Assembly: GCA_043814965.1 (NCBI GenBank) | Contig: JBDRJN010000017.1 | Span: forward strand, 6,038-70,037 | DNA length: 64,000 bases | Source of the DNA: Candidatus Omnitrophota bacterium | GTDB taxonomy: Bacteria; Omnitrophota; Gorgyraeia; Gorgyraeales; Gorgyraeaceae | Direction: 5' to 3' | Shown here: in pieces, positions 2,698 through 40,850 of the stretch | Position numbering within the stretch: position 1 is the first letter of the stretch | Layout: every line of letters begins with the position of its first letter | Program-made: the position numbers and the translations under genes | The notes under the pieces: model-generated | Told to the model about the DNA's origin: nothing | Databases searched by the model: none | Seen by the model: the letters and a program-made list of their open reading frames with translations, nothing else

Positions 2698-2699
2698 CA

Positions 2700-27250: not shown

Positions 27251-27552
27251 TCCCCTGTAGCTCAGCTGGTAGAGCGCGTGGCTGTTGAGCGGCGAAGCGA
27301 GCGCAAAACGTTTCGCACAAAGTTAGCAGCCTCTAATGGAAACATTAGAGTGGGAAAGCGGGTAAATTCAGGGAAAGCCTATAGAGTAGGTCAATCCTGA
27401 GCCAAGTCCGCCTAGGCGGAAAGGTGCAGAGACTAGACACTCGCTGCCTAAAGCTGGAAACAGCTATGGCAAAGGTATAGTCCGACTCTCCGAGTAATCG
27501 GAGTCAGATCGTAACCACGTTGTCCGAGGTTCGAGTCCTCGCGGGGGAGCCA
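27251..27552 (+). tRNA. tRNA-Asn (anticodon GTT) interrupted by a group I intron in the anticodon loop
   Basis: Exon 1 is 27251-27285 (acceptor TCCCCTG, D-arm GCTCAGCTGGTAGAGC, anticodon stem CGTGG, loop CTGT) and exon 2 is 27512-27552 (TAA, CCACG, T-arm CGAGG/CCTCG, acceptor CGGGGGA, G, CCA). The spliced anticodon loop CTGTTAA equals the E. coli tRNA-Asn loop. Confidence 0.75.
27286..27511 (+). ncRNA. group I self-splicing intron (226 nt) in tRNA-Asn
   Basis: Matches to all four conserved core elements: P AAATTCAGGGAAAGCC, Q AATCCTGAGCC, R GTGCAGAGACTAGACA, S AAGGTATAGTCC. The 5' exon ends in U and the intron ends in G. Confidence 0.75.
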
Positions 27553-27681
27553 ATCGAATGAAAGCCCTTTTTCGGAGATAATGGAAAAGGGCTTTCTTGT
27601 TGCTAGACATAGGGTTCAGTCTTTTAAAATAAAGTTCGAGCCGAGAATTTTCAAAATTTCTCTTTTAAGAGAGAGGTTTCC
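27553..27681. repeat. X element, copy 1, immediately 3' of the tRNA-Asn CCA; it contains the last ~22 codons of the recombinase gene
   Basis: Its reverse complement recurs at 29120-29248 with about 95% identity, and a same-strand variant recurs at 40614-40680. Confidence 0.8.
27561..27595. terminator. bidirectional hairpin terminator between tRNA-Asn and the convergent recombinase gene
   Basis: AAAGCCCTTTTTC-loop-GAAAAGGGCTTT stem. Confidence 0.5.
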
Positions 27682-27848
27682 TTGCCAAGCAATAGAACCT
27701 GCTTGATTACAAGTAGTTATGAAGTTTTTGGAGGGTTCGAGCCATCCGCCGCTTGTTTGATCTATCTCGCCAAGCCGCTCTTGTAATTCCTTCTTATCGT
27801 TAAGTAGCTTAGCTTTCTTTTTCTGATATTCTTCCTGCGAGATTTCTT
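27610..27848. repeat. ~240-bp direct repeat, copy A (X element plus 3' coding end of the recombinase gene)
   Basis: About 90% identical to 40614-40850, in the same orientation. Confidence 0.8.
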
Positions 27849-28986
27849 TAGAGATATAAAGATCAATAAGGCGTTCAATCTTAATGTCAAATTCCTTTAA
27901 CTTGTCATGGGCTTGGCGAGATAGAGAAGAGGAGGCTTTGCTTTCTCCGTTGGATAACTCGCCCAATCTATTCATCATTTTATCTTTAGTTTCATTATCT
28001 ATAAAAATTTTAAGGATAGCTTTATTTATCTGCGAAAGCAAAGCCTCTTCTCTAAGAAACTTTTGCGAGCATTTGACTATCTTCTTAGTGCATCGGTAAT
28101 AGGTATGGCCTTTATGAATCTCTGCTGTGATATACGCTCCACACTCGCCGCACTTAATAAGGCCTGTAAAAGCAAACTTAATCGCGCCTTTTTTGATAGG
28201 CTTAGCCTTTCGCTTCAAAACTTCCTGGACAGTATCAAAAAGTTTCTTAGAGACAAGCGGCGGGTGATTTGCTTCAAAAAGTTCGCCCTTAAATCTCATA
28301 ACTCCATAATAAAAAGGATTTCGTAAGATTGATGCGAGCGAACTTTTTCGGACAGGCTTGCCTGCCTTGCCTAAAATGCCCCATCTATGAATTTCTCTAA
28401 GTAGCTCCTCAAGCGAATAGTTGCCTCCTGCATATAACTCAAACATCTTTCGGACGAATGGCGCTTTCTCTGGGTCAGGCAAGATAGAGTGATCCTTAAA
28501 GTCATTGATATACCCAAGCGGAGCCCATCCAGGCCATTCGCCTCGGCGTAGTTTCTCACGTAATCCACGCTTCACATTTTCAGAAAGATTATCTATGTAG
28601 TATTTACTCTGCCCGAATGCGATAGAGAGCATAAACTTACCTTGAGCAGAGTTATCAAAGCGATATGTAGGGAATCTTAAGTCTATGATCTTACCAGTAT
28701 CTACGAGATAGATAATCTTTCCGCCGTCTATACTATTGCGGGCAAGCCTGTCCGGGTGCCATGCCAAAATTCCCTCGGCAATATTAGCTTCTATTTGCTT
28801 AAGCATGAAAGAGAAGATAGGCCGTCCCGGCTCTTTAGCTGTCTTAGCTTCAGTAAACTCATCAACTATCTCTAAAGACTCTTTTTTTGCGAATTCCCGC
28901 AACTCATTTATTTGCGATTCAATAGATAAGACTTGCCTATCTTCTTCATCCGTAGATTTCCTGGCGTATAAGTAGAATTTTGGCAT
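27616..28986 (-). CDS. large serine recombinase (resolvase/invertase catalytic domain, recombinase domain, zinc ribbon, coiled coil)
   Basis: N-terminal YARKSTDEED...SIESQ catalytic serine motif, central recombinase domain, CGECG...YYRC zinc ribbon, coiled-coil C-terminus. Confidence 0.85.
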   Translation of the reverse strand: MPKFYLYARKSTDEEDRQVLSIESQINELREFAKKESLEIVDEFTEAKTAKEPGRPIFSFMLKQIEANIAEGILAWHPDRLARNSIDGGKIIYLVDTGKIIDLRFPTYRFDNSAQGKFMLSIAFGQSKYYIDNLSENVKRGLREKLRRGEWPGWAPLGYINDFKDHSILPDPEKAPFVRKMFELYAGGNYSLEELLREIHRWGILGKAGKPVRKSSLASILRNPFYYGVMRFKGELFEANHPPLVSKKLFDTVQEVLKRKAKPIKKGAIKFAFTGLIKCGECGAYITAEIHKGHTYYRCTKKIVKCSQKFLREEALLSQINKAILKIFIDNETKDKMMNRLGELSNGESKASSSLSRQAHDKLKEFDIKIERLIDLYISKEISQEEYQKKKAKLLNDKKELQERLGEIDQTSGGWLEPSKNFITTCNQAGSIAWQGNLSLKREILKILGSNFILKD

Positions 28987-29119
28987 GGCATTAACCCTCC
29001 AAAAACTTTCTGTTGTCCCTCGGCTACGCTCGGGACTCCTTTCAGTCGCTTGGCAAAGTAAATTTTTTTGAGATCCATATAAATCTCAAAAATATTTCCT
29101 TATTCGCCGTAGGCGAAAA

Positions 29120-29248
29120 GGAAACCTCTCTCTTAAAAGAGATTTTTTAAAAATTCTCGGCTCGAACTTTATTTTAAAAGACCGAACCCTATGTCTAGCA
29201 ACAAGAAAGCCCTTTTCCATTATCTCCGAAAAAGGGCTTTCATTCGAT
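29120..29248. repeat. X element, copy 2, inverted, upstream of the recombinase start
   Basis: Reverse complement of 27553-27681. Confidence 0.8.
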
Positions 29249-29557
29249 TGGCTCTCTCTTTCGAACGATATACGAAACTATTTCAAGGGTTCCCTTGAAA
29301 TAGCGCCTTAAAGTTTTCAACGAATGGCTCGGCTGTGTGCTGAGGCGCCGCCCACCGCCTCAGCACACAGTGCCTTACTCGCTTGATAAAAGATGAGGTA
29401 GGTAAGGCGCTATCCTGCCTAACTCATACCTAATACGCCGTGGGGCAGGATGCCGAGCCAGCTCAAGCTCCCCGCACAAAAAGCAAATTTTGCCCCCACC
29501 CAAAATTTGCTTTTTGTGATGAAAAGAACATATATTGATTTATTTGGCTTGGGATAT
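29249..29557. repeat. left arm of a long imperfect inverted repeat bracketing the XRE and giant gene cargo; its outer end is a tRNA-3'-end-like sequence (minus strand ...TTCGAAAGAGAGAGCCA)
   Basis: The right arm at 40389-40546 is its reverse complement, apart from a ~150-nt internal insert that is itself a hairpin (GTGTGCTGAGG...CCTCAGCACAC). The arm also contains the perfect palindrome CACAAAAAGCAAATTTTG-CCCCCAC-CCAAAATTTGCTTTTTGTG. Confidence 0.75.
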
Positions 29558-29680
29558 TAGTTTGATTATCAAATAGACTATAGTTATGATTATCCCTGCT
29601 ATAATCCGTTCCAAATAAAACTTAAAATATCTATCCATGCTATAATGATACTTATAGTCATCATAAATGTCAAGATAAAA

Positions 29681-29713
29681 TGCTACTTATAGTATCGTAG
29701 ACAATAAGTAGCA
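29681..29713 (+). promoter_or_regulatory. candidate operator: perfect inverted repeat TGCTACTTAT-N13-ATAAGTAGCA upstream of the XRE gene
   Basis: 10-bp perfect inverted repeat arms; TATAAT-like hexamers lie at about 29620 and 29640. Confidence 0.45.
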
Positions 29714-29733
29714 AAAATGAGATAATTCATAGT

Positions 29734-29943
29734 ATGAAAAGCAATATTCTTAGACAATTTGGGGCTAAAGTTAAAAAACTTAGGAAAGCTAAGGGTTGGT
29801 CTCAAGAAGAACTTGCTGATAGATGCGGTCTTCATAGGACTTATATAGGCAGCATAGAAAGAAGTGAACGAAATGTTAGTTTAATTAACATCGAAAAAAT
29901 TGCAAAAGCGCTAGGTGCACCAGTTGGAAATTTGGTAGCGTAA
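29734..29943 (+). CDS. XRE-family helix-turn-helix transcriptional regulator
   Basis: Cro/C1-type HTH (QEELADRCGLHRTYIGSIERSERNVSLINIEKIAKAL). Confidence 0.8.
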   Translation: MKSNILRQFGAKVKKLRKAKGWSQEELADRCGLHRTYIGSIERSERNVSLINIEKIAKALGAPVGNLVA

Positions 29944-29954
29944 AAAAATTTTCC

Positions 29955-29983
29955 TTGCAAATCCTAACTTTTTTTGGTATAAT
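29955..29983 (+). promoter_or_regulatory. near-consensus promoter directly upstream of the giant gene (TTGCAA-17-TGgTATAAT)
   Basis: TTGCAA at 29955-29960, a 17-nt spacer, and an extended -10 TGGTATAAT at 29975-29983, about 10 nt before the ATG at 29994. Confidence 0.55.
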
Positions 29984-29993
29984 ACGTTAACGA

Positions 29994-32900
29994 TTGAATA
30001 AGAAGTATTTTAACGCAGATGGTGTCATGGGCTATCCAAGACGCCATTTTTTTGTCTACATTATGTCAAAGTTTAAAAAACCATTAATTAGTTTACTAAT
30101 ATCCGCTATATTTATTATTAATAATACAGCATATGCTATAGATCTGCCTGCAAAATCCTGCCTAAGAATCAATCACATGACAGACAAGGAGAATAAGGAT
30201 GAGGAAATAGGGAGGATCAAAGATGTGTATAAAGCGTTAGAGAACAACACAATTGAATCAGAAAAAAATATTCCAAGAGATAATAAAGGTAGATTCTCTG
30301 AAGAGGAAGGTAAAAATGCTATAGATATGGCCATGTTGCTTAGTGAAAGTAAATATGTAAATATACCATTTACAGTTAAAGAATATCATGAGATTTGGAA
30401 AGTAAAATATCCTGATAAGACAATCTCAACCAGTACAATATATAATGATTTAAACAAGGCTATAGAAAAAGGCTTGGTTGTAAAATCAAACAAAAGTTCT
30501 TATTATGAGTTAACCCAAAGAGCTAAGTCCCTTTTTTCTGAAGGATCTGATAATAAAGAGGAAAGATCACAAAGAAATATTCTATACAACGTTTCCGAAG
30601 CCAAGCTTTATACCAAGGCTGAAGATGGAACGCTTCGGAAAAATAAAAAATTTTATTTACCAGGAGAAGATAAAATATTTTTATCTTTAGTAAATAAACC
30701 TTTGAATAAAAAAGAAGACATTCTTGACAGGCAATTTGCCGTTACGTCTTTAATAGATGCGGGCAGTGAAAAAATAGAAGAATTAAAAGACAGCTCTTCT
30801 AGTGTATATCAATGGATAAATACCTATAAATATTTATGGGAAATAGATGAAAATGAAAGATATGGGGCTTTTGGATCAGGCAAATCTGCAAAGAGAAGGA
30901 TAGAGCAGTTTATAGATGAAGGCATAATTAATAAAGATACTTTGTCAGGCGATATTAAAAAAGCAGGAAAATCTGCGATAAAAGACGAAATGTCAAAGAA
31001 AGATGAGGCATTGCTAAAAATTAGGACAATAGATTACTATAAAGAAGAAGCGCAGGAGTTGGTAGATAACATAAGAAAGATTGCTGGCCAGGATGGAAAA
31101 GTCTTAAATGCTTTAGCGGATAATTTGCAGCGTAACATAGACAAGACAAATGCCCCAAGCCTCCTAGGTTTTATTGAATTGGTCGAAAAAAATAAGTGGG
31201 ATGCAATAAGTGATTTAATGCATAATTTAGAAAGCTTGGAATATTCAGTAGAAGAGATCAATGCGTTTTTGACATTTTCTGCCCTAGTTATTAATGATGA
31301 ATATGCAAAAGTAACTTATGATGATACAAAACCAGCTAGCTATAAAAATGGATGGCTATTTATAGAAAAGAAAAAAGCCGAAGAGCATTATTGGAGCGAT
31401 GAAGAAAAAGAGAAAGATCAGGTATTAAACGATAGCCCAGAAGATATACCAGTTGTTGTTTTAACAGGAAGCAATATGTCCGGTAAATCCCATTATCTAA
31501 AGCAGAATTATTTTATACAGCTTTTAGGCCAGTCTTTCGGATATGTCCCGGCTAAAGAGGCAAATTTACGTATATATGACCATATTGCCTATTTGGACAG
31601 GCCCTCTACTGACAGCTATAATGACTTAAGCGCATTTGGCAAAGAAATAGAAAACTGGAAACCTGTCATAAAAGATATATCAAGCAATTCCTTAGTATTT
31701 GTAGATGAAGGGTATTCTACGACTTCTCCTGAGGATCAGGCTAAGTTCTCAAAAGCAACCGCCGAATTTATTAAAGATAATAATGCACATATCATGATGG
31801 CTTCGCATAACGAAGAATTTATTAATACATTAAATGGGGCCGAAGGAACTAAATTTTATCATTTCGAGATAAATGTTGACGGCAATACGGTTGATTTTAC
31901 TAATAGATTGCGTGATGGCCCCGGAGATTCAAGTGCTTTAGATGTAGCAAAAGCACTTGGGCTGCCGCAAAGCATCTTAGACCGTTCCCAGAATTTTCTT
32001 GATGGAAAGATAGAGCCGGTAGAACCAAATCCAAATCACCTACCTAAAAATATTACCAGATACACAGAAGAAGAAAGAGAAGGATTAAAAAAGGAAACAG
32101 GAAATTTCCTTGCATTTTTCCCTTATGAAAATGTATTAGATATTAAGCCTGGTTACGATGGAAAAAATAAGCTGGAATTAAAATATAAGTCTCCTAATAA
32201 GATAGACCATTATGGTTATGGTTTTGGCAGTAATGATAAGCTAAAAGAAATTTATAACTTTGAGCCTATATTCAAACTTTTTAGCCAGGATAGGGATTTC
32301 AGCAATTTTTCCCCGATACTTAGTACAGATCTTGGGAAAATAAAAAACCCTAATTATATAACAAAGATTCAAAGCATATTAAAGCTCGGTTCTTCGAATG
32401 ATTCAAAGGAAATATTAGAGCGTCAAAAGATGTTTTCTGAATTAATATCAAAACCAGAACTTAGAGAATCCATGAGAGAAGATCTTTTGGGTATAGGTAA
32501 TCTAATGTATTCACTTGTGTTTGCAAGACAGTATATAAGTTTCGAAAGCTTTAATTTACAGTTTTTGGAGAGTGCTATACCTGATTTTAGGAATAGGATA
32601 GTTAAAGATGAAAATAAAGATGTATCTATGGATCTATTCCTGGGCATATTGGATATGAACTTAAAATTAACAGGCCTCGCGTATGAAGATATAGGAGTTT
32701 CGGAAGAAATCAAAAAATTGCAAAATTTACTTTCTATAGAATCTGAACTTGCGCAATTGTATGAAGAGGACCACAGGTATTGGATAGAAAATAAAGACAA
32801 TATGTCATCAGAGGGCTATAAGTCACAAGAAAAAGAATTCAAGAATAAAGTCACAGCTCTTGCAAAGAAATTTACTGAAATTACAGGTGAAAAACTCGTA

Positions 32901-35900
32901 AAGGAAGACAAATTTTATGTAACAGATATTAGGGAATCCCTAAAAAAGATATGCAAAGATATAAACGAAAAGGCTCAAGAAAAAATACCACCTGTCTCTC
33001 TTTTTGATGAAAATATCTGGCCTATATTAAGAGAAGAGACAGACAGGCTTTATCCTTTTGTTGATAATGAATTATCGCGCACTGTATTCTCCGCACCGCC
33101 TCATGTCATAGGTTTTTATTATATAAAAGCTTTATTGACAGATGAGAATTTGGTTGAAAAGCTTGTAGGGCAGCTAAAAAGTACGGATTCAGTCCATCTT
33201 CATCAATTTGCTAATTATTTTGATAAGATTTTTAATGTCTGGTTCGGAGAATTTAAGACAGGCATTGATTATTTAAAACATAAGAATGATTTACCAGGGA
33301 AAATAGCTGAAGTTGAAAAAAATATAAAAGAAGAAAAGGCATACCAAAAAAGCCTCATAAAAGGCAGTGAAGAAATAACCAGAATATTACAGGATAATCC
33401 GGATTTCCTGCAAAAAAGAATAGATGATTGCGAGGCGCAAATAAAAAATAAAGAAAAAGATATCGTGAATTATTCGGAGATTGTTGAGAGAAATCCGGGT
33501 GATGGCTATTGGGTTAATTTATTAAAAGAATCTAAGGATGCAAAGTTAAATTTAGAAAAAGAACTCAAAGATCTTCCTTTAGTTCAAAAGGCTGTAAATG
33601 GAGAAATATCTTTTGGCGATAATATAGACCAGGATTATCTTTTTAAACTGGTTCATGATGATTTTGTGGGTAGTAAGATCAGAAACTTATCCAGTAAATT
33701 AAGCATGTTGAAAGGCGAGCTAGATAGTAATCCTTTTGAAAGAAGAAGCGGTTTTGATGAAATACTAAATGAAAGTTTTAAGATGCATGTTTTATTGACT
33801 ATGGCATATTTAATGGATTATCAGGGATGGAAACCCGTTGAATTTACAAACGATCTTACTATAGATATGCAAGATGCCTGGAATCTTGTGAAGACAAAGG
33901 ATGAACAGGTGCCTTTAGATTTTACAATGAACGACAATGAAAAGGTAAAGATCTTTTCAGGGTCTAATATGTCAGGTAAGACCTTTGCTGAAAAGACCCT
34001 TATATGGAATGCTTTGTCAGGGCTAACTACAGGTTATGCTCCTAATGGGGGAATGAAAATGCCAATATTCGACCATGTAGTTTATATTGATAGAGTAACT
34101 GCGCAAATAGATAGAAAACTAAGCAGCTTTGGCCATGAAATAGAATACTGGAAAACATTCCTTAATGCTATAGATGATGATGACCTGGCTTTAGTTATTA
34201 TAGATGAGATGGGTTCAACTACGTCTCCAAAATATCAATCAGCATTATCTTATGCTATGTCAGAAGAGATGCTTGAAAAGGGGCATTTTCTTGTAGTTGC
34301 TTCGCATAATCATGCCTATATTGATGCATTTGAGAATACAAACGATAAATATAGTAATACCTATAATCTACTTACCAGGATAGATGAAGAAGGAAAAGCA
34401 GTGTTTGATTATAAGCTGGTTCCAGGGCATGAACCAAGTAATAGCATTGCGGTAGCAAAGACTATGGGATTTGATAAGATGGTTGGTTATATAGAAGAAG
34501 ATAATAAGGCCGATGAGTTGCTTATCCCAATATTGGCTGAACCGTATATTAATCATGACAAAGCAGTTAAGGATATGGTTAATCCTGGTAATAAGGATTT
34601 TGTAGGCCTATATGGAGGCGCAGGAGCAGACGTATCAAATGTTCTATATTCAACAAATGCTACTAAGGTTTATTTTGTTGATACAAGAAGTGTTTTCCTG
34701 GATAAACTTAAATACTATTGGCAGAATACCAAGCTTTCGCAAGAAGAAGAAAATCTATACAAGGAATATTCTAAGGAAAAATATTTTGCAGGATTCGGAG
34801 ATGTTGGGAAACTTATTGGAGATTTGGAGCTATATTTAACAGGTGAGTTAAAATCAATAGGTGTTACATCTAAAGACATAATAGATATTAATAATGACGA
34901 ATCAGGTAATCTTCGTATTAAATTTAACTGGGCATATGATAAAGATTCTCCTAAGAAAGAACGTGAAATTATCTTTATGCAGGATGATATTACTAAACCT
35001 TCTGACAAATTAATTGAATCAATAAATGGTAAGATAGATTTTTATTACCAAAGGGCAGCGTTGGACATCCCAATGAAATATAATGTTTTTATAAAGAAGA
35101 TAGGGGATTGCATGAAACCAAATGGTTTTATGATAACGGATAATAATTCCCCAAGAGGCGATTTTGGTTTTTACTATATAACACCTAAGCTAACAGATTT
35201 CAAGTTATTAGAAGACTCTAAAGATATGAAGACTAGCGCAAAAGAAATAGAGAACTTAAGGCGTGGGTATATGGGTCCTTATGGCTGGGCAGTTTCTATT
35301 ATGCAGAAGAAAGCAGAAAGCTTGGTTTCCAGCGAACCCACAGAAACTTCCCCTGGTCGCGGAACGGGAACAAATAACCCCACCCAGCCTACGAAAAACA
35401 TCCCTCTTGACAAGAAAGATATAGGCGCAAAGCTTGATGGTATAAAGCCAAAAAATATAAGTTCAATTAATCGAGACGCCAAGTCCGCTGAAGTACTAAA
35501 ATTCCTGGGAGACATAGATTCAGCTCCGAGTGATAAAAAAGCGCAGCTTGTGGTTGATTATATTTTAAACTTAAGCGGAATGGCTTTTAAAACAAAAAGT
35601 TTCCCTGTTTCAAAAGAAAGGCTTGATCAAATAGAAGATAGGCAATCTAAATTTTTAGAACGCTATTCAAAAAAACATGGCCTTTCACCGTCACTCAAAA
35701 AATATATCAACATTCAATATAGATCACTTACAAAGATATCAGAGGATAAATATGCAACGATAGCAAGTATTAATAGGATAGACTATTTTCTAGTGCTCTC
35801 AAAAGATGAATCAGGCATAGAGGATTTTAAACTTATATCCATGGATTCTAAAGATGAAATAAAGAAATATCAAAAAATTGCCAATAACTTTGTGCGAAAA

Positions 35901-38900
35901 ATTCTGCCAGGCGATAAAAATAAGAAGAAAAGAGAAAAAGTCGAGGACGACATTTCGAGTTTCTTTAATGAGATTAAAAGAAAAGCTAATAGAGATGAAG
36001 AATTTGATAGATTCTTCAAAGATACAGACCATCCTGACTTACCATTTAGTTATGCATTAGGCAGCCCTGCATTAAAAGTGCCGGAACTTGAATCAGCCAA
36101 AGAGCCTATCCAGTTGGAGGCTAAAACCGAAGAAAGAAAGTATAAGACTATCGCTGAAATAACTGATGAAGTTTTATTAAAACCAATTGAATCATTGATT
36201 AAAATAGATAAAGATGGCAACCCAAGGGCTTTAACGCAGGATGAGATCCTTTTAGAATATAAAAAAGGAGCGCTTGAAGCACTTAGGACAAAGGAAGGCT
36301 ATGAAGATGAATCTGAATTAAAGCAGTGGATTTCGCTTATATTGAAAGCAATAGAATATAATGATATGGAATTTAATCATATAGAAAAGAAAGAAGGATG
36401 GTTTCTCCTGGATGAAATATCTTTTCCTAAATTAAGAGAAAGCGCCAGAAAAAATATATTAACTGCTGCTACGATCCCAAGAGATGGAAAAACCTGGGTA
36501 TTTATAAAAGAAAATATGAACCTTTATCAGGCTGCATATGCTTTAACAAAACTCTCAGGAGTTGAACAAAAAATGACAATAGTTGGTTTAGGAGAAAAAT
36601 GTACCGAAACATTAAGATCCTCAATAAGAACTGTGATCCAAGAGGCGTATAAAGAAACCAAACCTATTGAGTCCAGCGAAATAAAAGATGAAGAAAAAAA
36701 CCTTGATTTTCATAATAGATTTTTACAAAAGCTCCATTATTCTTATAAAGTAGATCCAGAGTTCAGGAAAGCAATAGATGAACTACGCGAAAAAGTTTTA
36801 AGCCAGATACATCCACAAGAAAGTGAAGCTTTTAGATTTATTACAGATAATGAAATAACCAGCTTTGCTTTGGAATTTGCCGCGCGAATAGGAGAAACCC
36901 CTCTTATAGCTGACCCATATACCAGTTGGGGTATTATAGATAATGAGAAAGACGAGCCCCATTATTTTATAAACTATTCTGAACTTTATGCAAAACATAA
37001 AAAAGCTATTGATAAATACACGCATTATTCACATTACGAATTTATTATTGATGATGGCTCGTGGAGTGGGCTTAAGGTGAAAGGCGGGATGAATTATCTA
37101 TATAATACTCTTCGCAATATTTTTACATACAATGAAATAGTAGATTTTCTTAAAAGTGAAACAAATAAAGGGCTTATCAACCCAATAGTAAAACCCTATG
37201 AAACAGAACAGTTTTTCCTTCCTAATATTGATTTTACAAGGCCAAGCGATGAGGATGCCTTTGATAATATGAATATTGATCAGCTTTTCCAGGCAGTAGA
37301 AAATATGCCTAAAGAAGAATGGGAGAAATATAAAGTCAATATATTAAACCGATATTCCTATCTTGCCCGTAAAGGAGAAATAGAGCCAGTTTTTTTTATG
37401 AAACATATCAGCGCATTAGCAAAAAAAGATGTTGATATTTTACGGGATAAACACGCAAGCTGGGCTAGCGGCCATAAATATTATTTTGATAGGGCTGAAA
37501 TAACAAGGGCAATCATTGAGACTGTTTTAAGGTCTTCTAAATCAAGTTTTTTAAATGATGATTTCCTTTTAGAATATTATTCCCAGGCTGATGAAGTAAA
37601 AGATGACGGTACATTTGTTTACTATGAAACAAAGGATTACAAAAAAACTGACGAACAAATTTCACAAGTAAATGCTATCAATCGTCTTGCCAATGGTTAT
37701 ATGGGTGAAGGCCCTATATCCAGATATCCATTATATGCATTGTCTATGATCATGAATATTTCTCCTGAACGCATAGGCCCAAAAACTATGAATTTATTTG
37801 TTGCTATGGCAGAAGCAGGCAGGGATAGATATAAGCTATATATAGGAGACGATCGTGGCTGGCTAGAAGATAGCTATGGCGTAACCCCTGTTTTTGATAT
37901 ACCAATCAGAGCTTTTGACTATCACCCTGAATATTATTCTAAACTTTTGGTTGAATCTAAAATAACCCCGGATATTTTAACTTTTCTCATCAGGCCGGAG
38001 ACTGCCCCAGGGGATAATATAGGTCTGTTTTCTTCTCTGCGAGAACCAGGAGCAGAAGAAAGGGAATACAAAAGCTTTCTTTCAGGTGAAATAATAAAAG
38101 GTTTGGTTACAGGGAATTCAGTAGAGGGCAATCAACTCAAATTATTAAAAGCTATTATCAATGATTTTTCAGCAGTTGCCAACAATACTATTCTTGAACA
38201 CTGGAGAAAGTTTAGTAAAGATGACTTAAATTCACTTTTAGGGCTTAAAACAAAAGTAGATAGTTCCATACTTGAAAAAATGGAAACCATTTTTAGCAAA
38301 GAAGGATTAGGCAATAGGGTAGTTGCTTTGTTTTTAGCAATGTATCCTGATTTTAATATAGAAACTGCCAAGGATTTGGACAAGCTTTTAAAAGATGACT
38401 CAGTTCAAACTACATTTGGCATATTAAAAGCTATTAAAGATAAATTATGGACAATAGAAGAAATCAGGGCTCTTTATAGGGCTAATCTATGGAGTTTTAC
38501 CTCAGCTAATGTAAGGCATACTAATTTAAAACAAGTGCTTAATTTATCAGAAGAAGATAAGTCAAAGCTTTTCATAGTATTATCGGGTAAAAAATTATTG
38601 CCTCAGAATATTTTCGATATTTATCCTTTAAATATTCCAAAGGATCATGCGCTTTACGATAAATATAGCCATGAATTAAAAACTTACTCAATGAGTTATT
38701 CAAGTTTTACCGGAGCGATGGAAATGGTTGCAGATTCTAAGGAACTAGAAGAAAGCGTTAAAGGTAGAGTTACGCATAGGTCAAGGCTCTTATTTAATGA
38801 CCTTGGAGCTATCTTGAAATTGCCCAGGAAAGACCTGTTGAGAAAAGTTGAACTATTGGAAAAATTCGAGACGAACAAAGTTGAATTAGACAATACTGCT

Positions 38901-40355
38901 TACAGGCTCCTATTAGTAGTCCCAGAAGAACATTTTGATGAATTATTCGGTATTTTGGAAGAGAATTTTGATAGCCTTAAAAATCTGAAACAAACAAAGA
39001 AAGAAATAACTGCCAAATTTCAGGATATAGTTAAATTAAACCCTGAATTAAAGGATCTTTCGCAGAAAACCATTGTCCGATGGGCTAGTGAGCAAATGGG
39101 CATAACTTCGCGTAAAAGGCTTACAGAACCAGGCGCAAAAGACAATATTGCCAGCGCTTTTCGAGATAAGCTGAAAGCTGATGATCTAGGTAGAAAGGTA
39201 AATAGCGGGGAAGCGAGCGAGGAAGAAAATAAAAAATATATGAACCTGATAGCTGTAAATAAGTTATTATCAGCGATCGTTGATAATGTGAAACTATACA
39301 AATCCTGGCTTTCAGAGATACCAGATGCAGAGACTGACCCCAGCAAAATGTTGCCAGGCAAAGTCTTAATCGAACCCAATCAAACTACAGAAACCTCCCC
39401 TGGTCCGCGATCGGGATTGGTAGAAAACACCATAGAAAATTCTGAATCAGAAGAATCAAAGATCCAGACTCAGATTAGTGAATTTTTAAATATTACACGT
39501 GAAATCAATAGAAGCGATTCTAAACAAAAAGTTAATTATGTATTTGATAAGGTAGGCCCAAATATCGACACTATTTTAAGAGGCCATCTTTTAGATGAAG
39601 GTATTTCAGCTATTAGAAGAGAAATAACATATGACTCTAAAGATCTAGAACTCTTTGAAACATCAAAATATTTCTTAGAGCTTCTTATAGAAAATTCTAC
39701 AGTGTTTTCATCAGAAGATGCCTTAGCCGGCAGAATACAATTATTATCGAAGCAGTATAGTATGGTAGAAAGAGTTGTAAAAGAATGCGATGATCTTTTA
39801 AATAATCCTGCACTTATAAGTGAGTTTGCAGATGCAGTAAAAGGTTTTAAGTTGGATCTAGAGAAACAAAAAAATAAGATGACAAATATTATAGATTACT
39901 TAAAGGCTAAAGACTTTTTTGAAGAAGGAGAAAATCCATCCGAAGTCTTAGCTGATATTGAGATAGATCATGTAGTTTTAGATGTAATGGATGGCATAGG
40001 GCGTCCTAATAGTTTTGTAGGCATATTAGACGCTCTTTTGATAAAAGGAAACATTAAATCAATAACTGTATTTAGCCGTTCTCAAGATAGTTTAAATATT
40101 TTTATAGATAGAATAGGGCTTGAGAAATTTAATGAACTTAAAGAAAAAGGCATTAATTTTGTCGTAGAAAAAAAACTATGGGAAGAAGGCAATAATTCTG
40201 AAGCTAATCTTTGGGCGAAAGTAGGAAATGAATTGTTCAATATAGATAGGCATATGTTTGGCGATAAAATAGGAATAAATAGGGTAACGATATTAAATGT
40301 TAAAGATAAACTATCAGAAGGAAAAATGCTAATAGAACATCTAAATAATATGTAA
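29994..40355 (+). CDS. giant 3453-aa multidomain protein with two MutS-family (domain V) ABC-ATPase modules and an N-terminal signal/anchor segment
   Basis: Uninterrupted 10.4-kb ORF. The first module at aa ~485-655 has Walker A GSNMSGKS, Walker B LVFVDEGYSTTSP, and the MutS C-terminal motif GPGDSSALDVAKALGLPQSIL. The second at aa ~1320-1490 has GSNMSGKT, LVIIDEMGSTTSP and SNSIAVAKTMGF. MutS-core-like helices precede module 2. A possible Rossmann GxGxG (LYGGAGADVS) lies at aa ~1540, with ETSPG(R/P) linkers. An alternative start at the Met at 30063 (MSKFKKPLISLLISAIFII) would give a signal peptide. Confidence 0.8.
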   Translation: MNKKYFNADGVMGYPRRHFFVYIMSKFKKPLISLLISAIFIINNTAYAIDLPAKSCLRINHMTDKENKDEEIGRIKDVYKALENNTIESEKNIPRDNKGRFSEEEGKNAIDMAMLLSESKYVNIPFTVKEYHEIWKVKYPDKTISTSTIYNDLNKAIEKGLVVKSNKSSYYELTQRAKSLFSEGSDNKEERSQRNILYNVSEAKLYTKAEDGTLRKNKKFYLPGEDKIFLSLVNKPLNKKEDILDRQFAVTSLIDAGSEKIEELKDSSSSVYQWINTYKYLWEIDENERYGAFGSGKSAKRRIEQFIDEGIINKDTLSGDIKKAGKSAIKDEMSKKDEALLKIRTIDYYKEEAQELVDNIRKIAGQDGKVLNALADNLQRNIDKTNAPSLLGFIELVEKNKWDAISDLMHNLESLEYSVEEINAFLTFSALVINDEYAKVTYDDTKPASYKNGWLFIEKKKAEEHYWSDEEKEKDQVLNDSPEDIPVVVLTGSNMSGKSHYLKQNYFIQLLGQSFGYVPAKEANLRIYDHIAYLDRPSTDSYNDLSAFGKEIENWKPVIKDISSNSLVFVDEGYSTTSPEDQAKFSKATAEFIKDNNAHIMMASHNEEFINTLNGAEGTKFYHFEINVDGNTVDFTNRLRDGPGDSSALDVAKALGLPQSILDRSQNFLDGKIEPVEPNPNHLPKNITRYTEEEREGLKKETGNFLAFFPYENVLDIKPGYDGKNKLELKYKSPNKIDHYGYGFGSNDKLKEIYNFEPIFKLFSQDRDFSNFSPILSTDLGKIKNPNYITKIQSILKLGSSNDSKEILERQKMFSELISKPELRESMREDLLGIGNLMYSLVFARQYISFESFNLQFLESAIPDFRNRIVKDENKDVSMDLFLGILDMNLKLTGLAYEDIGVSEEIKKLQNLLSIESELAQLYEEDHRYWIENKDNMSSEGYKSQEKEFKNKVTALAKKFTEITGEKLVKEDKFYVTDIRESLKKICKDINEKAQEKIPPVSLFDENIWPILREETDRLYPFVDNELSRTVFSAPPHVIGFYYIKALLTDENLVEKLVGQLKSTDSVHLHQFANYFDKIFNVWFGEFKTGIDYLKHKNDLPGKIAEVEKNIKEEKAYQKSLIKGSEEITRILQDNPDFLQKRIDDCEAQIKNKEKDIVNYSEIVERNPGDGYWVNLLKESKDAKLNLEKELKDLPLVQKAVNGEISFGDNIDQDYLFKLVHDDFVGSKIRNLSSKLSMLKGELDSNPFERRSGFDEILNESFKMHVLLTMAYLMDYQGWKPVEFTNDLTIDMQDAWNLVKTKDEQVPLDFTMNDNEKVKIFSGSNMSGKTFAEKTLIWNALSGLTTGYAPNGGMKMPIFDHVVYIDRVTAQIDRKLSSFGHEIEYWKTFLNAIDDDDLALVIIDEMGSTTSPKYQSALSYAMSEEMLEKGHFLVVASHNHAYIDAFENTNDKYSNTYNLLTRIDEEGKAVFDYKLVPGHEPSNSIAVAKTMGFDKMVGYIEEDNKADELLIPILAEPYINHDKAVKDMVNPGNKDFVGLYGGAGADVSNVLYSTNATKVYFVDTRSVFLDKLKYYWQNTKLSQEEENLYKEYSKEKYFAGFGDVGKLIGDLELYLTGELKSIGVTSKDIIDINNDESGNLRIKFNWAYDKDSPKKEREIIFMQDDITKPSDKLIESINGKIDFYYQRAALDIPMKYNVFIKKIGDCMKPNGFMITDNNSPRGDFGFYYITPKLTDFKLLEDSKDMKTSAKEIENLRRGYMGPYGWAVSIMQKKAESLVSSEPTETSPGRGTGTNNPTQPTKNIPLDKKDIGAKLDGIKPKNISSINRDAKSAEVLKFLGDIDSAPSDKKAQLVVDYILNLSGMAFKTKSFPVSKERLDQIEDRQSKFLERYSKKHGLSPSLKKYINIQYRSLTKISEDKYATIASINRIDYFLVLSKDESGIEDFKLISMDSKDEIKKYQKIANNFVRKILPGDKNKKKREKVEDDISSFFNEIKRKANRDEEFDRFFKDTDHPDLPFSYALGSPALKVPELESAKEPIQLEAKTEERKYKTIAEITDEVLLKPIESLIKIDKDGNPRALTQDEILLEYKKGALEALRTKEGYEDESELKQWISLILKAIEYNDMEFNHIEKKEGWFLLDEISFPKLRESARKNILTAATIPRDGKTWVFIKENMNLYQAAYALTKLSGVEQKMTIVGLGEKCTETLRSSIRTVIQEAYKETKPIESSEIKDEEKNLDFHNRFLQKLHYSYKVDPEFRKAIDELREKVLSQIHPQESEAFRFITDNEITSFALEFAARIGETPLIADPYTSWGIIDNEKDEPHYFINYSELYAKHKKAIDKYTHYSHYEFIIDDGSWSGLKVKGGMNYLYNTLRNIFTYNEIVDFLKSETNKGLINPIVKPYETEQFFLPNIDFTRPSDEDAFDNMNIDQLFQAVENMPKEEWEKYKVNILNRYSYLARKGEIEPVFFMKHISALAKKDVDILRDKHASWASGHKYYFDRAEITRAIIETVLRSSKSSFLNDDFLLEYYSQADEVKDDGTFVYYETKDYKKTDEQISQVNAINRLANGYMGEGPISRYPLYALSMIMNISPERIGPKTMNLFVAMAEAGRDRYKLYIGDDRGWLEDSYGVTPVFDIPIRAFDYHPEYYSKLLVESKITPDILTFLIRPETAPGDNIGLFSSLREPGAEEREYKSFLSGEIIKGLVTGNSVEGNQLKLLKAIINDFSAVANNTILEHWRKFSKDDLNSLLGLKTKVDSSILEKMETIFSKEGLGNRVVALFLAMYPDFNIETAKDLDKLLKDDSVQTTFGILKAIKDKLWTIEEIRALYRANLWSFTSANVRHTNLKQVLNLSEEDKSKLFIVLSGKKLLPQNIFDIYPLNIPKDHALYDKYSHELKTYSMSYSSFTGAMEMVADSKELEESVKGRVTHRSRLLFNDLGAILKLPRKDLLRKVELLEKFETNKVELDNTAYRLLLVVPEEHFDELFGILEENFDSLKNLKQTKKEITAKFQDIVKLNPELKDLSQKTIVRWASEQMGITSRKRLTEPGAKDNIASAFRDKLKADDLGRKVNSGEASEEENKKYMNLIAVNKLLSAIVDNVKLYKSWLSEIPDAETDPSKMLPGKVLIEPNQTTETSPGPRSGLVENTIENSESEESKIQTQISEFLNITREINRSDSKQKVNYVFDKVGPNIDTILRGHLLDEGISAIRREITYDSKDLELFETSKYFLELLIENSTVFSSEDALAGRIQLLSKQYSMVERVVKECDDLLNNPALISEFADAVKGFKLDLEKQKNKMTNIIDYLKAKDFFEEGENPSEVLADIEIDHVVLDVMDGIGRPNSFVGILDALLIKGNIKSITVFSRSQDSLNIFIDRIGLEKFNELKEKGINFVVEKKLWEEGNNSEANLWAKVGNELFNIDRHMFGDKIGINRVTILNVKDKLSEGKMLIEHLNNM

Positions 40356-40388
40356 CTTTTCACTTTTTTATCTCTTTATTATAATCTC

Positions 40389-40546
40389 GTATCCCAAGCC
40401 AAATAAATCAATATATGTTCTTTTCATCACAAAAAGCAAATTTTGGGTGGGGGCAGCCGCCACAGATGTCTGCCGAGCCATTCGTTGAAAATTTCATGGC
40501 TTTATTTCAAGGGAACCCTTGAAATACTTTCGTATCTCGTCCGAAA
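40389..40546. repeat. right arm of the long inverted repeat, ending in the tRNA-3'-like ...GAAAGAGAGAGCCA
   Basis: Reverse complement of parts of 29249-29557. Confidence 0.75.
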
Positions 40547-40613
40547 GAGAGAGCCAGTCAACACAGGGGCTTATTTTTACGACGAGTTCGTAAGGGTAAG
40601 CCCTTTTTATTAT

Positions 40614-40850
40614 TAGGGTTCGGTCTTTTAAAATAAAGTTCGAGCCGAGAATTTTCAAAATTTCTCTTTTAAGAGAGAGGTTTCCTTGCCAAGCAATAGA
40701 ACCTGCTTCGTTACAAGTAGTTATGAAGTTTTTGGAGGGTTCGAGCCATCCGCCGCTTGATTTAGCGAGCTCGCCAAGTCGCTCCTGTAAGTCTTTCTTA
40801 TCATTGAGTAATTTAGCCTTCTTTTTCTGATATTCTTCCTGTGAAATCTC
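40614..40850. repeat. direct repeat copy B: X-element variant plus a truncated 3' fragment of a recombinase gene (pseudogene remnant, minus strand)
   Basis: About 90% identity to 27610-27848; no intact ORF. Confidence 0.75.

What the first reader, a model, noticed from the sequence alone, without database searches (positions are those of the whole stretch)
29994..40355. Giant 3453-aa protein with tandem MutS-family ATPase modules as cargo of a recombinase-associated island
A single 10.4-kb ORF sits directly behind a near-consensus extended -10 promoter and an XRE regulator gene. It has two clear MutS domain-V ABC ATPase modules: Walker A GSNMSGKS/T, Walker B (F/I)(V/I)DE-GSTTSP, and the MutS C-terminal G.G.S.A(L/I).VAK..G(L/F)P motif. 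There is no mismatch-binding domain, a possible N-terminal signal/anchor if translation starts at the Met at 30063, a Rossmann-like GxGxG segment, and repeated ETSPG(R/P) linkers. A doubled MutS2-like engine inside a giant secreted or anchored protein on a mobile island is not a described architecture. It could be a defence or DNA-transaction system, or a giant surface protein of the type seen in Omnitrophota-like genomes.
Basis: partly seen in the sequence, partly recalled or inferred. Interest (0 to 1): 0.7.

Follow-up and report, generated by a model that had tools for sequence, protein, structure and literature searches.

The report
Giant protein with fused double MutS engine
A real 10-kb gene in an uncultured Omnitrophota bacterium encodes a 3,430-residue protein whose core is two MutS-type ATPase units fused into one chain; that core belongs to a widespread unnamed protein family, the gene sits behind a restriction-system-type controller protein on a small mobile island, and more than half of the protein has no detectable relative.

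Summary
ORF 29994-40355 is open for 3,453 codons and contains two MutS domain V modules with intact ATPase motifs. It has no mismatch-binding domain. A Sec-type leader follows the Met at 30063.

New findings:
- **Organism:** a Candidatus Omnitrophota MAG.
- **Double MutS is a family trait:** residues ~200-1480 match, in the same order, a family of unnamed 1,150-1,600-aa "hypothetical" proteins. Each has two distinct, conserved MutS-like halves. They occur in Omnitrophota, Peribacteraceae (CPR) and Margulisiibacteriota, and inside a few other mosaic giants. An AF2 model (pLDDT 85) matches MutS/MutSbeta/MutS2 core-to-ATPase structures, so I read the cassette as a single-chain MutS2-like pseudo-heterodimer.
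- **The "XRE" is an R-M controller (C) protein:** its best PDB hits are C.BclI and C.AhdI, and three canonical C-boxes lie upstream.
- **Mobile unit:** the serine recombinase, C gene and giant gene form a 13.0-kb unit next to an intron-split tRNA-Asn. It is bounded by 237-bp direct repeats, and the C+giant cassette has low GC3.
- **The rest of the protein:** residues 1490-1765 form a conserved unnamed domain with two relatives. Residues ~1790-3430 have no relative in anything searched.

Function is unresolved. My preferred reading is a C-controlled, island-borne, nucleic-acid-directed module protein. Verdict: new variant of known kinds, moderately interesting.

The parts
27251..27552 (+). tRNA-Asn(GTT) gene interrupted in the anticodon loop by a 226-nt group I intron (27286-27511). 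It forms the left flank of the island.
   Evidence: Rfam RF00028 scores 73 bits at 27276-27504. After removing 27286-27511, ARAGORN calls an intact tRNA-Asn(gtt).
27610..27846 (.). Left copy of the 237-bp direct repeat. It covers the 3' end of the recombinase gene.
   Evidence: the repeat finder family D1: 27610-27846 and 40614-40850, 92% identical, spacing 13,004 nt; alignment A1.
27616..28986 (-). Large serine recombinase gene, 456 aa.
   Evidence: Pfam Resolvase + Recombinase + Zn_ribbon_recom. PHROG 95 integrase, E 2e-85. GC3 is 0.40, like the host genes.
29118..29563 (.). Left inverted-repeat block. It holds an inverted copy of the recombinase 3' end plus terminator (29118-29254), then repeats C and D (29246-29563). 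The region is strongly structured.
   Evidence: Inverted repeats I1 (137 nt, 97%), I2, I3 and I4; alignment A1; RNA fold z = -8.1.
29649..29709 (.). Three C-box palindromes: tACTTATAGTc at 29649-29659, then tACTTATAGTa-TCGT-AGACAATAAGT at 29684-29709.
   Evidence: These are the only exact ACTTATAGT copies in the 64-kb window, and a 1-mismatch copy lies 16 nt further on. The form GACTtatAGTC with a central GT is the one described in PMC3115060. The boxes overlap promoter hexamers.
29734..29943 (+). Controller (C) protein gene, 69 aa, HTH_3.
   Evidence: PADLOC Control_protein E 8e-27. Best PDB hits are C.BclI 3.7e-19, C.AhdI 2.7e-14 and C.Esp1396I 1.5e-9.
29955..29983 (+). Extended -10 promoter-like site directly upstream of the giant gene.
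   Evidence: TTGCAA-17-TATAAT with TG, 10 of 12 matches. This is a consensus match only.
30063..40355 (+). Giant gene, 3,430 aa counted from ATG 30063. The ORF is open from 29994. NCBI calls the start at Met39 (30177).
   Evidence: The N-terminal leader is conserved in relatives from residue 1-4 onward, which supports 30063 as the start.
30063..30137 (+). Sec-type leader or anchor: MSKFKKPLISLLISAIFIINNTAYA|ID.
   Evidence: It is the only hydrophobic segment in the protein. Matching leaders occur in P0006, P0148, P0160 and P0013. Reading it as a signal peptide follows the n/h/c-region rule; it was not run through a predictor.
30660..34502 (+). Tandem MutS cassette, aa ~200-1480: helical core, ATPase 1, ~600-aa helical lever/clamp region, ATPase 2.
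   Evidence: Matches in the same order 1.15-1.6-kaa family members. AF2 with a 21-sequence alignment gives pLDDT 85 and pTM 0.75. Foldseek PDB top hits are MutSbeta, MutS and MutS2 with 420-600 aligned columns, E about 1e-11.
31458..32000 (+). MutS domain V module 1, aa 466-646.
   Evidence: Pfam PF00488, profile positions 2-184 of 188. Taq MutS E 1.6e-18.
33888..34478 (+). MutS domain V module 2, aa ~1276-1472.
   Evidence: Second Pfam stretch. T. maritima MutS2 9kce, E 1.3e-10, aa 1276-1472. NCBIfam KamC and MutS2 hits.
34530..35357 (+). Conserved unnamed domain, aa 1490-1765. Its motifs are LYGGAGAD, DxYYQRA and GGFxITDD, and it ends in the first TETSPG linker.
   Evidence: Two relatives: P0167 (32% identity over 329 aa, E 4e-36) and P0168 from Elusimicrobiota. 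No Pfam or PDB hit.
35358..40352 (+). Orphan C-terminal region, aa 1766-3430. The second TETSPG is at 39387-39404.
   Evidence: No relative in any search. Only its first ~435 aa (to aa 2200) were modelled, within the single-sequence AF2 run of aa 1490-2200, which failed (pLDDT 40); aa 2201-3430 were never modelled.
40383..40559 (.). Right inverted-repeat block (D', C'), the partner of 29246-29563.
   Evidence: I2 (82%) and I4 (96%); alignment A1.
40614..40850 (.). Right copy of the 237-bp direct repeat: a truncated remnant of a recombinase 3' end. It marks the right edge of the island.
   Evidence: D1; alignment A1.

Best explanation
This is a genuine gene of a Candidatus Omnitrophota genome. 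It encodes a modular 'long protein' built around a single-chain MutS-like ATPase pair.

Modules, in order:
1. A Sec-type leader.
2. A winged-helix-like segment.
3. A ~1,280-aa cassette in which two different MutS-like halves are fused into one polypeptide. Each half has a helical core/lever plus an ABC ATPase with intact Walker A, Walker B, signature and His-switch motifs.
4. A conserved but unnamed Rossmann-like domain.
5. About 1,650 aa with no detectable relatives.

The cassette lacks the mismatch-binding and connector domains of MutS1 and the Smr nuclease of MutS2. It is a member of a widespread unnamed family. Its two halves are separate, conserved lineages, so it behaves like a covalently linked heterodimer. 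Shown: the domain content, the family membership and the fold.

Inferred mechanism:
- The two ATPase heads close on each other when ATP binds, and the helical arms act as a clamp on a nucleic-acid substrate (branched DNA or an RNA/ribosome complex, as MutS2 does). The attached modules act on whatever is clamped.
- The gene sits in the position that the restriction-enzyme gene holds in C-R operons. It lies directly downstream of a true R-M-type controller protein whose C-boxes overlap that protein's own promoter. Expression is therefore probably delayed and capped by the C-protein switch after the element enters a cell, which suggests the product is costly or harmful when uncontrolled.
- The recombinase, C gene and giant gene form a 13.0-kb unit beside tRNA-Asn, bounded by direct repeats of the recombinase 3' end. 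It is most likely an integrative element or its remnant.
For: - ORF reality.
- Organism.
- Two MutS_V modules with intact motifs.
- Family: 7,879 hits, of which 111 at E<1e-30. Residues 200-1480 align in the same order to standalone proteins that each have two MutS_V domains.
- Two conserved lineages: same-module pairs average 156 bits against 89 bits for cross-module pairs.
- Fold: pLDDT 85, pTM 0.75, and MutS, MutSbeta and MutS2 as best structural matches over 420-600 columns.
- C-protein. C-boxes. Promoter overlaps.
- Island.
- Related giants carrying the same cassette among other enzyme modules.
- Published descriptions of Omnitrophota mosaic long proteins.
Against: - No nuclease, helicase or recognisable methyltransferase was detected.
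- 57% of the protein has no Pfam, NCBIfam or PDB match (aa 1490-1765 has two unnamed relatives; aa ~1790-3430 has none).
- The conserved Sec-type leader predicts export, which conflicts with ATP-dependent, nucleic-acid-directed modules.
- Standalone family members sit among housekeeping genes without a C-protein or recombinase. The island and C-protein context may therefore say little about what the cassette does.
- No empty integration site was found in 53 related loci.
- Whether the two ATPase heads touch in the model could not be inspected.
Confidence: 0.55

Rival explanations
1. It is a defence or restriction-like system in one polypeptide. The C-protein controls a toxic DNA-targeting enzyme, as in C-R operons. 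The MutS-like clamp senses or translocates on foreign DNA. The LYGGAGAD domain would be a diverged methyltransferase, and the orphan C-terminus would hide the effector, for example a nuclease.
For: - The regulator is a close relative of C.BclI and C.AhdI, with canonical C-boxes, and the giant gene occupies the position downstream of C.
- The cassette has low GC3 and lies on a recombinase island.
- PADLOC candidate PDC-M38A gives a weak domain-level hit, E 3e-9.
- Motifs in aa 1490-1700 follow the order of class I methyltransferase motifs, and they line up with the Methyltransf_11 region of P0160, though not significantly (E 1.3).
- Restriction enzymes are often undetectable by sequence (general knowledge).
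Against: - No defence-system model, nuclease or methyltransferase passes any threshold.
- A Sec leader is not expected on a cytoplasmic defence enzyme.
- Relatives with the same cassette lie in housekeeping contexts, or are fused to HAD, NUDIX, radical-SAM and phosphatase modules.
Confidence: 0.2
2. It is an exported or surface-tethered effector of the Omnitrophota 'long protein' class. It would be used on or in a host or prey cell, where ATP and nucleic acids are available.
For: - A typical signal peptide (positively charged n-region, 15-residue hydrophobic core, AYA|ID) is conserved in the closest relatives and in P0148, a different giant that shares only aa 1-155.
- 94% of catalogued Omnitrophota long proteins carry a signal peptide or TM helices, and many carry cytosolic-type enzyme modules.
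- Related giants are mosaics of the same kinds of modules: PPDK_N, NUDIX, HAD and methyltransferase.
Against: - No adhesion, cell-wall-degrading or secretion-system domain was found.
- Only 14 of 150 family representatives have such a leader.
- The published papers themselves call such localisation predictions doubtful.
- A winged-helix-like segment and two ABC ATPases make no sense outside a cell.
Confidence: 0.17
3. It is a housekeeping-type MutS2-like factor (recombination control or ribosome rescue) that merely happens to have been extended and moved onto an island.
For: - Standalone tandem-MutS homologues lie beside EF-P, RecJ, pyrimidine-synthesis and central-metabolism genes.
- The best matches among solved structures include MutS2 of B. 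subtilis and T. maritima.
Against: - The KOW and Smr domains that recruit MutS2 to ribosomes are absent.
- Scores are far below the NCBIfam MutS2 cut-off: 123 bits against 400.
- This copy has foreign GC3, a C-protein and recombinase repeats.
Confidence: 0.06
4. It is an assembly chimera or a decaying pseudogene.
For: - Repeats of 74-237 nt surround the cassette and could mislead a short-read assembler.
- No Shine-Dalgarno sequence precedes any candidate start, although neighbouring genes have one.
- The C-terminal half has no relatives.
Against: - The frame stays open for 3,453 codons where about 8% of random codons would be stops.
- GC3 is uniform across the two halves, 0.278 and 0.269.
- The repeats lie outside the ORF.
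- The same ORF is in NCBI as a single protein.
Confidence: 0.02

Closest known systems
MutS2 (B. subtilis and T. maritima; PDB 7qv3, 8qpp, 9kce)
   Same: It lacks the mismatch-binding and connector domains. It keeps the helical core/lever plus the ABC ATPase with the C-terminal helix-turn-helix. It is among the best sequence and structure matches for both modules.
   Different: MutS2 is a homodimer of ~780-aa chains with KOW and Smr domains. Here two diverged halves are fused in one chain, there is no KOW or Smr, and the family hallmark DE..STTSP follows Walker B.
Paired MutS paralogues MutS3A/B and MutS4A/B (Lin, Nei and Ma 2007, PMC2190696)
   Same: These are MutS proteins reduced to the ATPase (plus or minus the core) that occur as two conserved paralogues. 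The MutS4A and MutS4B genes are adjacent, with overlapping stop and start codons. That is the arrangement a fusion like this one would come from.
   Different: They are separate genes, not one polypeptide. I could not test whether the present modules are orthologous to MutS3 or MutS4, because no reference sequences were available. Their functions are also unknown.
Unnamed tandem-MutS family (e.g. MBU1006422.1 Omnitrophica, MDD5041279.1 Peribacteraceae, MFA4905074.1 Margulisiibacteriota)
   Same: Same order of parts, module 1 - long helical linker - module 2, aligning to residues 200-1480 at 25-54% identity. Both ATPase sites are conserved.
   Different: Most members are standalone proteins of 1,150-1,600 aa without a leader, in housekeeping neighbourhoods. 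The present protein adds a leader plus winged-helix-like N-terminus and 1,950 further residues, and it is island-borne behind a C-protein.
Omnitrophota long or giant mosaic proteins (West-Roberts et al. 2023 preprint; 2026 complete-genome preprint)
   Same: Same phylum, an N-terminal signal peptide or anchor, a concatenation of unrelated enzyme modules with large unannotated stretches, and occasional mobile-element contexts. Relatives P0009 and P0160 combine the MutS cassette with HAD, NUDIX, methyltransferase, radical-SAM and phosphatase modules.
   Different: At 3.4 kaa this protein is far below the 10-kaa or larger class studied there. It has one hydrophobic segment rather than many. MutS modules are not mentioned in either paper (0 occurrences).
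C-protein-controlled restriction-modification operons (C.BclI, C.AhdI, C.Esp1396I, C.PvuII)
   Same: The regulator is a close homologue. The operators have the GACTtatAGTC-nGTn-GACTtatAGTC form and overlap the -35 element. A third, single box lies upstream, like the three operators of Esp1396I. The controlled gene lies directly downstream.
   Different: The downstream gene is not a recognisable restriction enzyme, and no methyltransferase gene is present. The giant gene also has its own near-consensus promoter.

Membership tests
MutS superfamily (ABC ATPase, Pfam MutS_V) | MutS domain V above the Pfam gathering score, with Walker A, Walker B, signature and His-switch motifs | tested here: met
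   PF00488 scores 139 bits against a cut-off of 30.2, in two stretches. The motifs are listed. The PDB hits are MutS proteins.
MutS1 (mismatch-repair MutS) | N-terminal mismatch-binding domain I and connector domain II; NCBIfam equivalog score | tested here: not met
   No MutS_I or MutS_II hit. TIGR01070 scores 128 bits against 642, and PRK05399 scores 130 against 480.
MutS2 | Core, clamp and ATPase followed by KOW and Smr domains; NCBIfam TIGR01069 cut-off | tested here: not met
   TIGR01069 scores 123 bits against 400. No Smr or KOW hit in Pfam. The fold of each half does resemble MutS2.
KamC (lysine 5,6-aminomutase reactivase ATPase) | NCBIfam NF052383 equivalog cut-off | tested here: not met
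   147 bits against 300, and only the ATPase core aligns.
Unnamed tandem-MutS family | Two non-identical MutS_V modules in one chain, in conserved order, separated by a ~500-600-aa helical region; each module closer to its counterpart in other members than to its partner | tested here: met
   Alignments in the same order to more than 60 representatives. Two MutS_V stretches in each member tested. Same-module pairs average 156 bits against 89 bits for cross-module pairs.
Unnamed tandem-MutS family | Intramolecular pairing of the two ATPase heads (pseudo-dimer) | not testable with these tools
R-M controller (C) proteins | ~70-80-aa HTH protein homologous to known C-proteins | tested here: met
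   PADLOC Control_protein E 8e-27, full length. C.BclI E 3.7e-19 and C.AhdI E 2.7e-14 are the top PDB hits.
R-M controller (C) proteins | C-box operators (GACTtatAGTC pairs with a central GT) upstream of its own gene | tested here: met
   Boxes at 29649-29659 and 29684-29709. These are the only exact ACTTATAGT copies in 64 kb. The form matches the description in PMC3115060.
R-M controller (C) proteins | Association with a restriction endonuclease and methyltransferase gene pair | tested here: not met
   No REase or MTase model hits the giant or its neighbours. There is no ORF of 60 aa or more on the minus strand between 29000 and 29730.
Class I SAM-dependent methyltransferases (for aa 1490-1765) | Significant match to a methyltransferase profile or structure | tested here: inconclusive
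   No Pfam hit even at E<=10, and no PDB hit with the sequence or a 3-sequence profile. The only alignment to the Methyltransf_11 region of P0160 that keeps the motif order is non-significant, E 1.3. The AF2 single-sequence model is unusable.
Integrative island mobilised by a large serine recombinase | Intact recombinase with catalytic serine, flanking repeats, tRNA-adjacent position, deviating composition | tested here: met
   Resolvase + Recombinase + Zn ribbon domains, and the N-terminal YARKST motif. 237-bp direct repeats 13,004 nt apart. tRNA-Asn flank. GC3 0.21-0.27 against 0.39.
Integrative island mobilised by a large serine recombinase | Empty site in a related genome, or evidence of excision | tested here: not met
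   53 related Omnitrophota loci share the MFS-orf316 side but none shares the upstream side, so no empty site could be defined. Read-level data are not available.
Omnitrophota giant proteins as defined in the literature (>=10,000 aa) | Length of at least 10 kaa with many TM helices and, commonly, a SecA-DEAD module | tested here: not met
   The protein is 3,430 aa with one hydrophobic segment and no SecA hit. It shares only the mosaic style and the leader.

The most novel reading that the evidence does not exclude
A restriction-type controller protein and a serine-recombinase element have been recruited to carry and time the expression of a new kind of single-polypeptide nucleic-acid machine. 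That machine would consist of a covalently fused MutS heterodimer clamp coupled to an unnamed Rossmann-like domain and about 1,650 aa of entirely novel sequence, possibly including a third, decayed MutS-like ATPase at aa ~2800-3000. It would act either as a new class of anti-mobile-element defence or, given the conserved Sec leader, as an exported effector that manipulates the DNA or ribosomes of the host or prey cell of an Omnitrophota episymbiont.
Probability: 0.2. Interest if true: 0.85.

Novelty: new variant of a known kind. Interest (0 to 1): 0.55.

Why it matters
MutS proteins work as dimers, and eukaryotes use fixed heterodimers. Here bacteria have fixed such a heterodimer by fusing its two halves into one chain. 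The resulting family spans several uncultured phyla and has no name, no Pfam architecture description that I could find, and no studied member. This window gives the family a tractable handle: one copy sits in a compact 13-kb unit with a well-understood genetic switch (C-protein and C-boxes) that could be moved into a model host.

It also links the poorly understood 'long mosaic proteins' of Omnitrophota to mobile elements and to restriction-style regulation. And it exposes a sharp localisation paradox, an export leader on ATP- and nucleic-acid-dependent modules, whose resolution would tell us whether these ultra-small bacteria export such machines.

Tried and rejected
Searches and runs that led nowhere:
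- The whole-protein homologue search timed out.
- No relatives of the C-terminal part were found in the 5.8-billion protein index, GTDB genomes, JGI metagenomes, phages and plasmids, or the fetched loci and representatives. That index never returned the window's own protein, so its negatives are weaker than they look.
- Pfam on seven sub-segments at E<=10 gave nothing beyond noise. PDB sequence searches of the segments also gave nothing.
- The single-sequence AF2 model of aa 1490-2200 was unusable, pLDDT 40.

Ideas tested and set aside:
- A third MutS module in the C-terminus: hhalign probability 0.7%, and an HMM domain score of -0.8 bits over 35 aa. I rejected this as unsupported and kept it only as a note.
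- The methyltransferase reading of aa 1490-1765: not supported by any profile.
- An empty-site comparison across 53 syntenic loci: the upstream synteny is not conserved.
- Promoter-inversion phase variation: the C+giant cassette carries its own promoters inside the inverted repeats, so flipping it would not switch expression.
- TETSPG as a meaningful repeated linker: it is no more than chance gives.
- A literature search for a MutS-like reactivase link (KamC) found nothing.
Full report
**1. The observation**

The ORF at 29994-40355 (+) is real. It is 3,453 codons long with one terminal stop. The other five frames of the same stretch have 117-449 stops and no open run above 130 codons. With the local base composition, about 8% of random codons would be stops, giving ln P of about -298 for an accidental ORF of this length.

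A 69-aa helix-turn-helix gene lies at 29734-29943. A TTGCAA-17-TATAAT site with a TG extension lies at 29955-29983.

Pfam finds MutS domain V twice (E 1.8e-40) and nothing else above noise. NCBIfam finds only sub-threshold matches to KamC, MutS and MutS2.

The only hydrophobic segment is at the N-terminus, counted from ATG 30063.

Two details are weaker than stated:
- The duplicated TETSPG is not beyond chance. 37% of shuffles contain some exact repeated 6-mer.
- The 'GxGxG' segment reads LYGGAGAD.

**2. Organism and annotation**

Neighbouring proteins are exact matches to NCBI entries MFH1479129-MFH1479135 of a Candidatus Omnitrophota MAG, on a 72-kb contig. The giant protein is in the 50%-representative library as P0005, called from Met39 (3,392 aa).

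I prefer ATG 30063 as the start. The leader it adds, MSKFKKPLISLLISAIFIINNTAYA|IDLPAKSCLRI, is conserved at protein level in relatives: P0006, P0160, P0013, and P0148, which shares only aa 1-155 at 38% identity. No candidate start has a Shine-Dalgarno sequence, although the MFS and recombinase genes do.

**3. The double MutS is a family, not a one-off**

An exhaustive phmmer search with aa 1-1133 against 1.84 billion representatives gave 7,879 hits, 111 of them below 1e-30.

Local BLAST shows that residues ~200-1480 align in the same order (module 1, a ~600-aa helical stretch, module 2) to proteins of 1,150-1,600 aa. Every member tested has two MutS_V stretches.

Named members are 'hypothetical proteins' of Omnitrophota, Peribacteraceae (CPR) and Margulisiibacteriota.

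Across 21 aligned members, the Walker A lysine, the Walker B Asp-Glu, the STTSP hallmark and the switch histidine are invariant or nearly so in both modules. Module 1 domains resemble other module 1 domains much more than they resemble module 2 domains (156 against 89 bits on average). The two halves are therefore old, distinct lineages kept together, like a heterodimer that has been fused.

AlphaFold2 on aa 281-1480 with this alignment gave pLDDT 85 and pTM 0.75. Foldseek against the PDB returned MutSbeta, MutS and MutS2 chains as the best hits. The aligned lengths of 420-600 columns cover the core/lever and ATPase domains, at E about 1e-11.

There is no mismatch-binding domain, connector, KOW or Smr.

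The nearest described concept is the paired paralogues MutS3A/B and MutS4A/B. The MutS4A and MutS4B genes are adjacent with overlapping stop and start codons (PMC2190696). I could not test orthology to them.

**4. What the family's surroundings say**

Standalone members sit among ordinary genes: EF-P, RecJ and purine genes in a Margulisiibacteriota genome, sugar metabolism in a Peribacteraceae genome, and pyrimidine synthesis next to the 2,996-aa P0007. None has a C-protein or recombinase nearby.

The cassette also occurs inside other mosaics:
- P0009 (5,808 aa) carries HAD, Methyltransf_11, NUDIX and histidine-phosphatase modules.
- P0160/P0162 (3,410 aa) carries a leader, B12-binding, radical-SAM and Methyltransf_11 modules.

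This matches the published picture of Omnitrophota long proteins as multi-enzyme mosaics, of which 94% carry a signal peptide or TM helices. MutS is not mentioned in either paper.

Only 14 of the 150 best representatives have an N-terminal hydrophobic leader, and these are the closest relatives.

**5. The rest of the protein**

- **aa ~85-165** look like a winged helix, supported only by weak hits (Csa3 0.003, FUR 0.14).
- **aa 1490-1765** form a conserved domain with two relatives: P0167 (984 aa, 32% identity over 329 aa) and an Elusimicrobiota fragment. Invariant motifs are LYGGAG.D, D.YYQRA and G(G)F.ITDD. The order of motifs is that of class I methyltransferases, but no profile or structure search supports this.
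- **aa ~1790-3430** found nothing in any collection or library. Single-sequence AlphaFold, run on aa 1490-2200 only, failed.
- **aa 2807-2960** carry a faint MutS_V-like pattern in the expected motif order, but it is statistically unsupported.

**6. The regulator is a restriction-system controller protein**

The 69-aa protein matches PADLOC Control_protein over its full length (E 8e-27). Its best solved relatives are C.BclI (3.7e-19), C.AhdI and C.Esp1396I.

Upstream lie three palindromes of the canonical C-box form. The only two exact ACTTATAGT copies in the 64-kb window are at 29650 and 29685. A one-mismatch copy at 29701 is separated from the second by TCGT. This is the GACTtatAGTC-nGTn-GACTtatAGTC layout described for C-proteins (PMC3115060).

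The paired boxes overlap the -35 of a plus-strand promoter (29698-29726). The single box overlaps the -10 of a strong minus-strand promoter, TTGACA-17-TATCAT at 29673-29645.

No restriction enzyme or methyltransferase gene is recognisable. The giant gene occupies the position that the restriction gene holds in C-R operons.

**7. The island**

Immediately left lies a tRNA-Asn(GTT) gene split by a group I intron. Next comes a large serine recombinase gene on the minus strand.

The last 237 nt of that gene recur at 92% identity at 40614-40850, 13,004 nt away in direct orientation. A further 74-nt piece plus the adjacent terminator recurs inverted at 29118-29254, at 97% identity.

The C+giant cassette is itself bracketed by inverted repeats, 29246-29563 against 40383-40559.

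GC3 is 0.21 for the C gene and 0.27 for the giant (equal in both halves). It is 0.40 for the recombinase and 0.39+-0.04 for 27 other genes in the window.

I read this as a 13-kb integrative unit, or its remnant, whose cargo cassette has a different origin from its recombinase. No empty site could be found: 53 related loci keep the MFS-orf316 side but not the upstream side. Excision and inversion are untested.

**8. Mechanism, with what is shown and what is inferred**

Shown:
- The gene, its modules, the family membership and the fold of the cassette.
- The identity of the regulator and its operators.
- The repeat architecture and the composition.

Inferred:
- ATP-driven closure of the two fused heads, with clamp-like action on a nucleic-acid substrate, by analogy with MutS and MutS2.
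- C-protein-timed expression.
- Mobility through the recombinase.

Unresolved: the substrate, the activity of the 1,950 C-terminal residues, and above all the localisation. A conserved Sec-type leader sits on a protein whose recognisable parts need ATP and nucleic acids.

I give 0.55 to the architectural and regulatory account. Among functional readings I weight them as follows:
- a defence or restriction-like enzyme, 0.20;
- an exported effector, 0.17;
- a housekeeping MutS2-like factor, 0.06;
- an artefact, 0.02.

**9. Novelty and score**

The parts are of known kinds: a MutS-family ATPase, a C-protein switch, a serine-recombinase island and an Omnitrophota mosaic protein. The fused tandem-MutS family appears undescribed in the literature I could search, and its pairing with a C-protein is unusual.

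I rate it a new variant of a known kind, with interest 0.55. It is surprising to a MutS or mobile-element specialist and it is experimentally approachable. However, the mosaic-giant phenomenon is already reported, and no function is established here.

Noticed in passing
window 27251-27552: The tRNA-Asn(GTT) gene is interrupted within the anticodon by a 226-nt group I intron (27286-27511). ARAGORN misses the gene until the intron is removed.
   Followed up: yes
window 24744-26783: The pyruvate:ferredoxin oxidoreductase beta (TPP-binding) subunit carries an intein with a LAGLIDADG-type region (Intein_splicing E 1.5e-15). A gyrase A gene with an intein lies next to the related giant in L063.
   Followed up: no
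window 26825-27193: A gene for a 23S rRNA intervening-sequence protein (PF05635) lies between the PFOR genes and the tRNA, with no rRNA nearby.
   Followed up: no
window 29200-29640 (minus strand): A non-coding stretch downstream of a strong minus-strand promoter (29673-29645, overlapped by C-box 1) folds into a chain of long perfect hairpins (z = -8.1). Rfam finds no match. The right-hand inverted copy lacks 140 nt of it. It could be a structured RNA, or recombination or terminator sites.
   Followed up: partly
window 27640-27670, 29135-29165, 40645-40675: All three copies of the recombinase 3' end contain the small palindrome TCTCTT-TT-AAGAGA. This is a candidate crossover core for the serine recombinase, and it lies inside the recombinase's own coding sequence.
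   Followed up: no
P0009 (locus L008 3373-20799): In this related 5,808-aa giant, the motif D[AS]AM[VIL] recurs 17 times at roughly 200-300-aa intervals. It brackets the tandem-MutS cassette exactly (aa 4003 and 5290), like linker or cleavage sites of a polyprotein. The motif is absent from the window protein.
   Followed up: partly
P0009, P0015, P0019, P0082, P0090, P0167 N-termini; P0009 and P0167 C-termini: A second shared frame occurs among related long proteins. After the leader comes an N-terminal domain beginning (L/I)KG(I/L).V.P..P(F/L)(K/R)FDF. The C-terminus ends with GGIDL...F(L/V)P(V/I)IINI.P. Neither part has a Pfam match.
   Followed up: no
window aa 2807-2960 of the giant (38481-38942): This stretch has degenerate MutS_V-like motifs in the expected order (W.F, FIVLSG in place of Walker A, SSFTGAMEM, LLFNDLG, LLLVVPEEHF), with overall spacing like the two true modules. 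It is not statistically supported (hhalign probability 0.7%).
   Followed up: partly
locus L009 8983-16944: The giant P0148 shares only the leader and winged-helix-like N-terminus with the window protein. It is followed directly by a second giant gene (more than 3,212 aa, running off the contig) with no Pfam hit.
   Followed up: no
tool behaviour: The word-indexed homologue search never returned the window's own giant protein, although its neighbours are in the collection. Negative results from that tool for this protein are therefore weaker than they look.
   Followed up: partly
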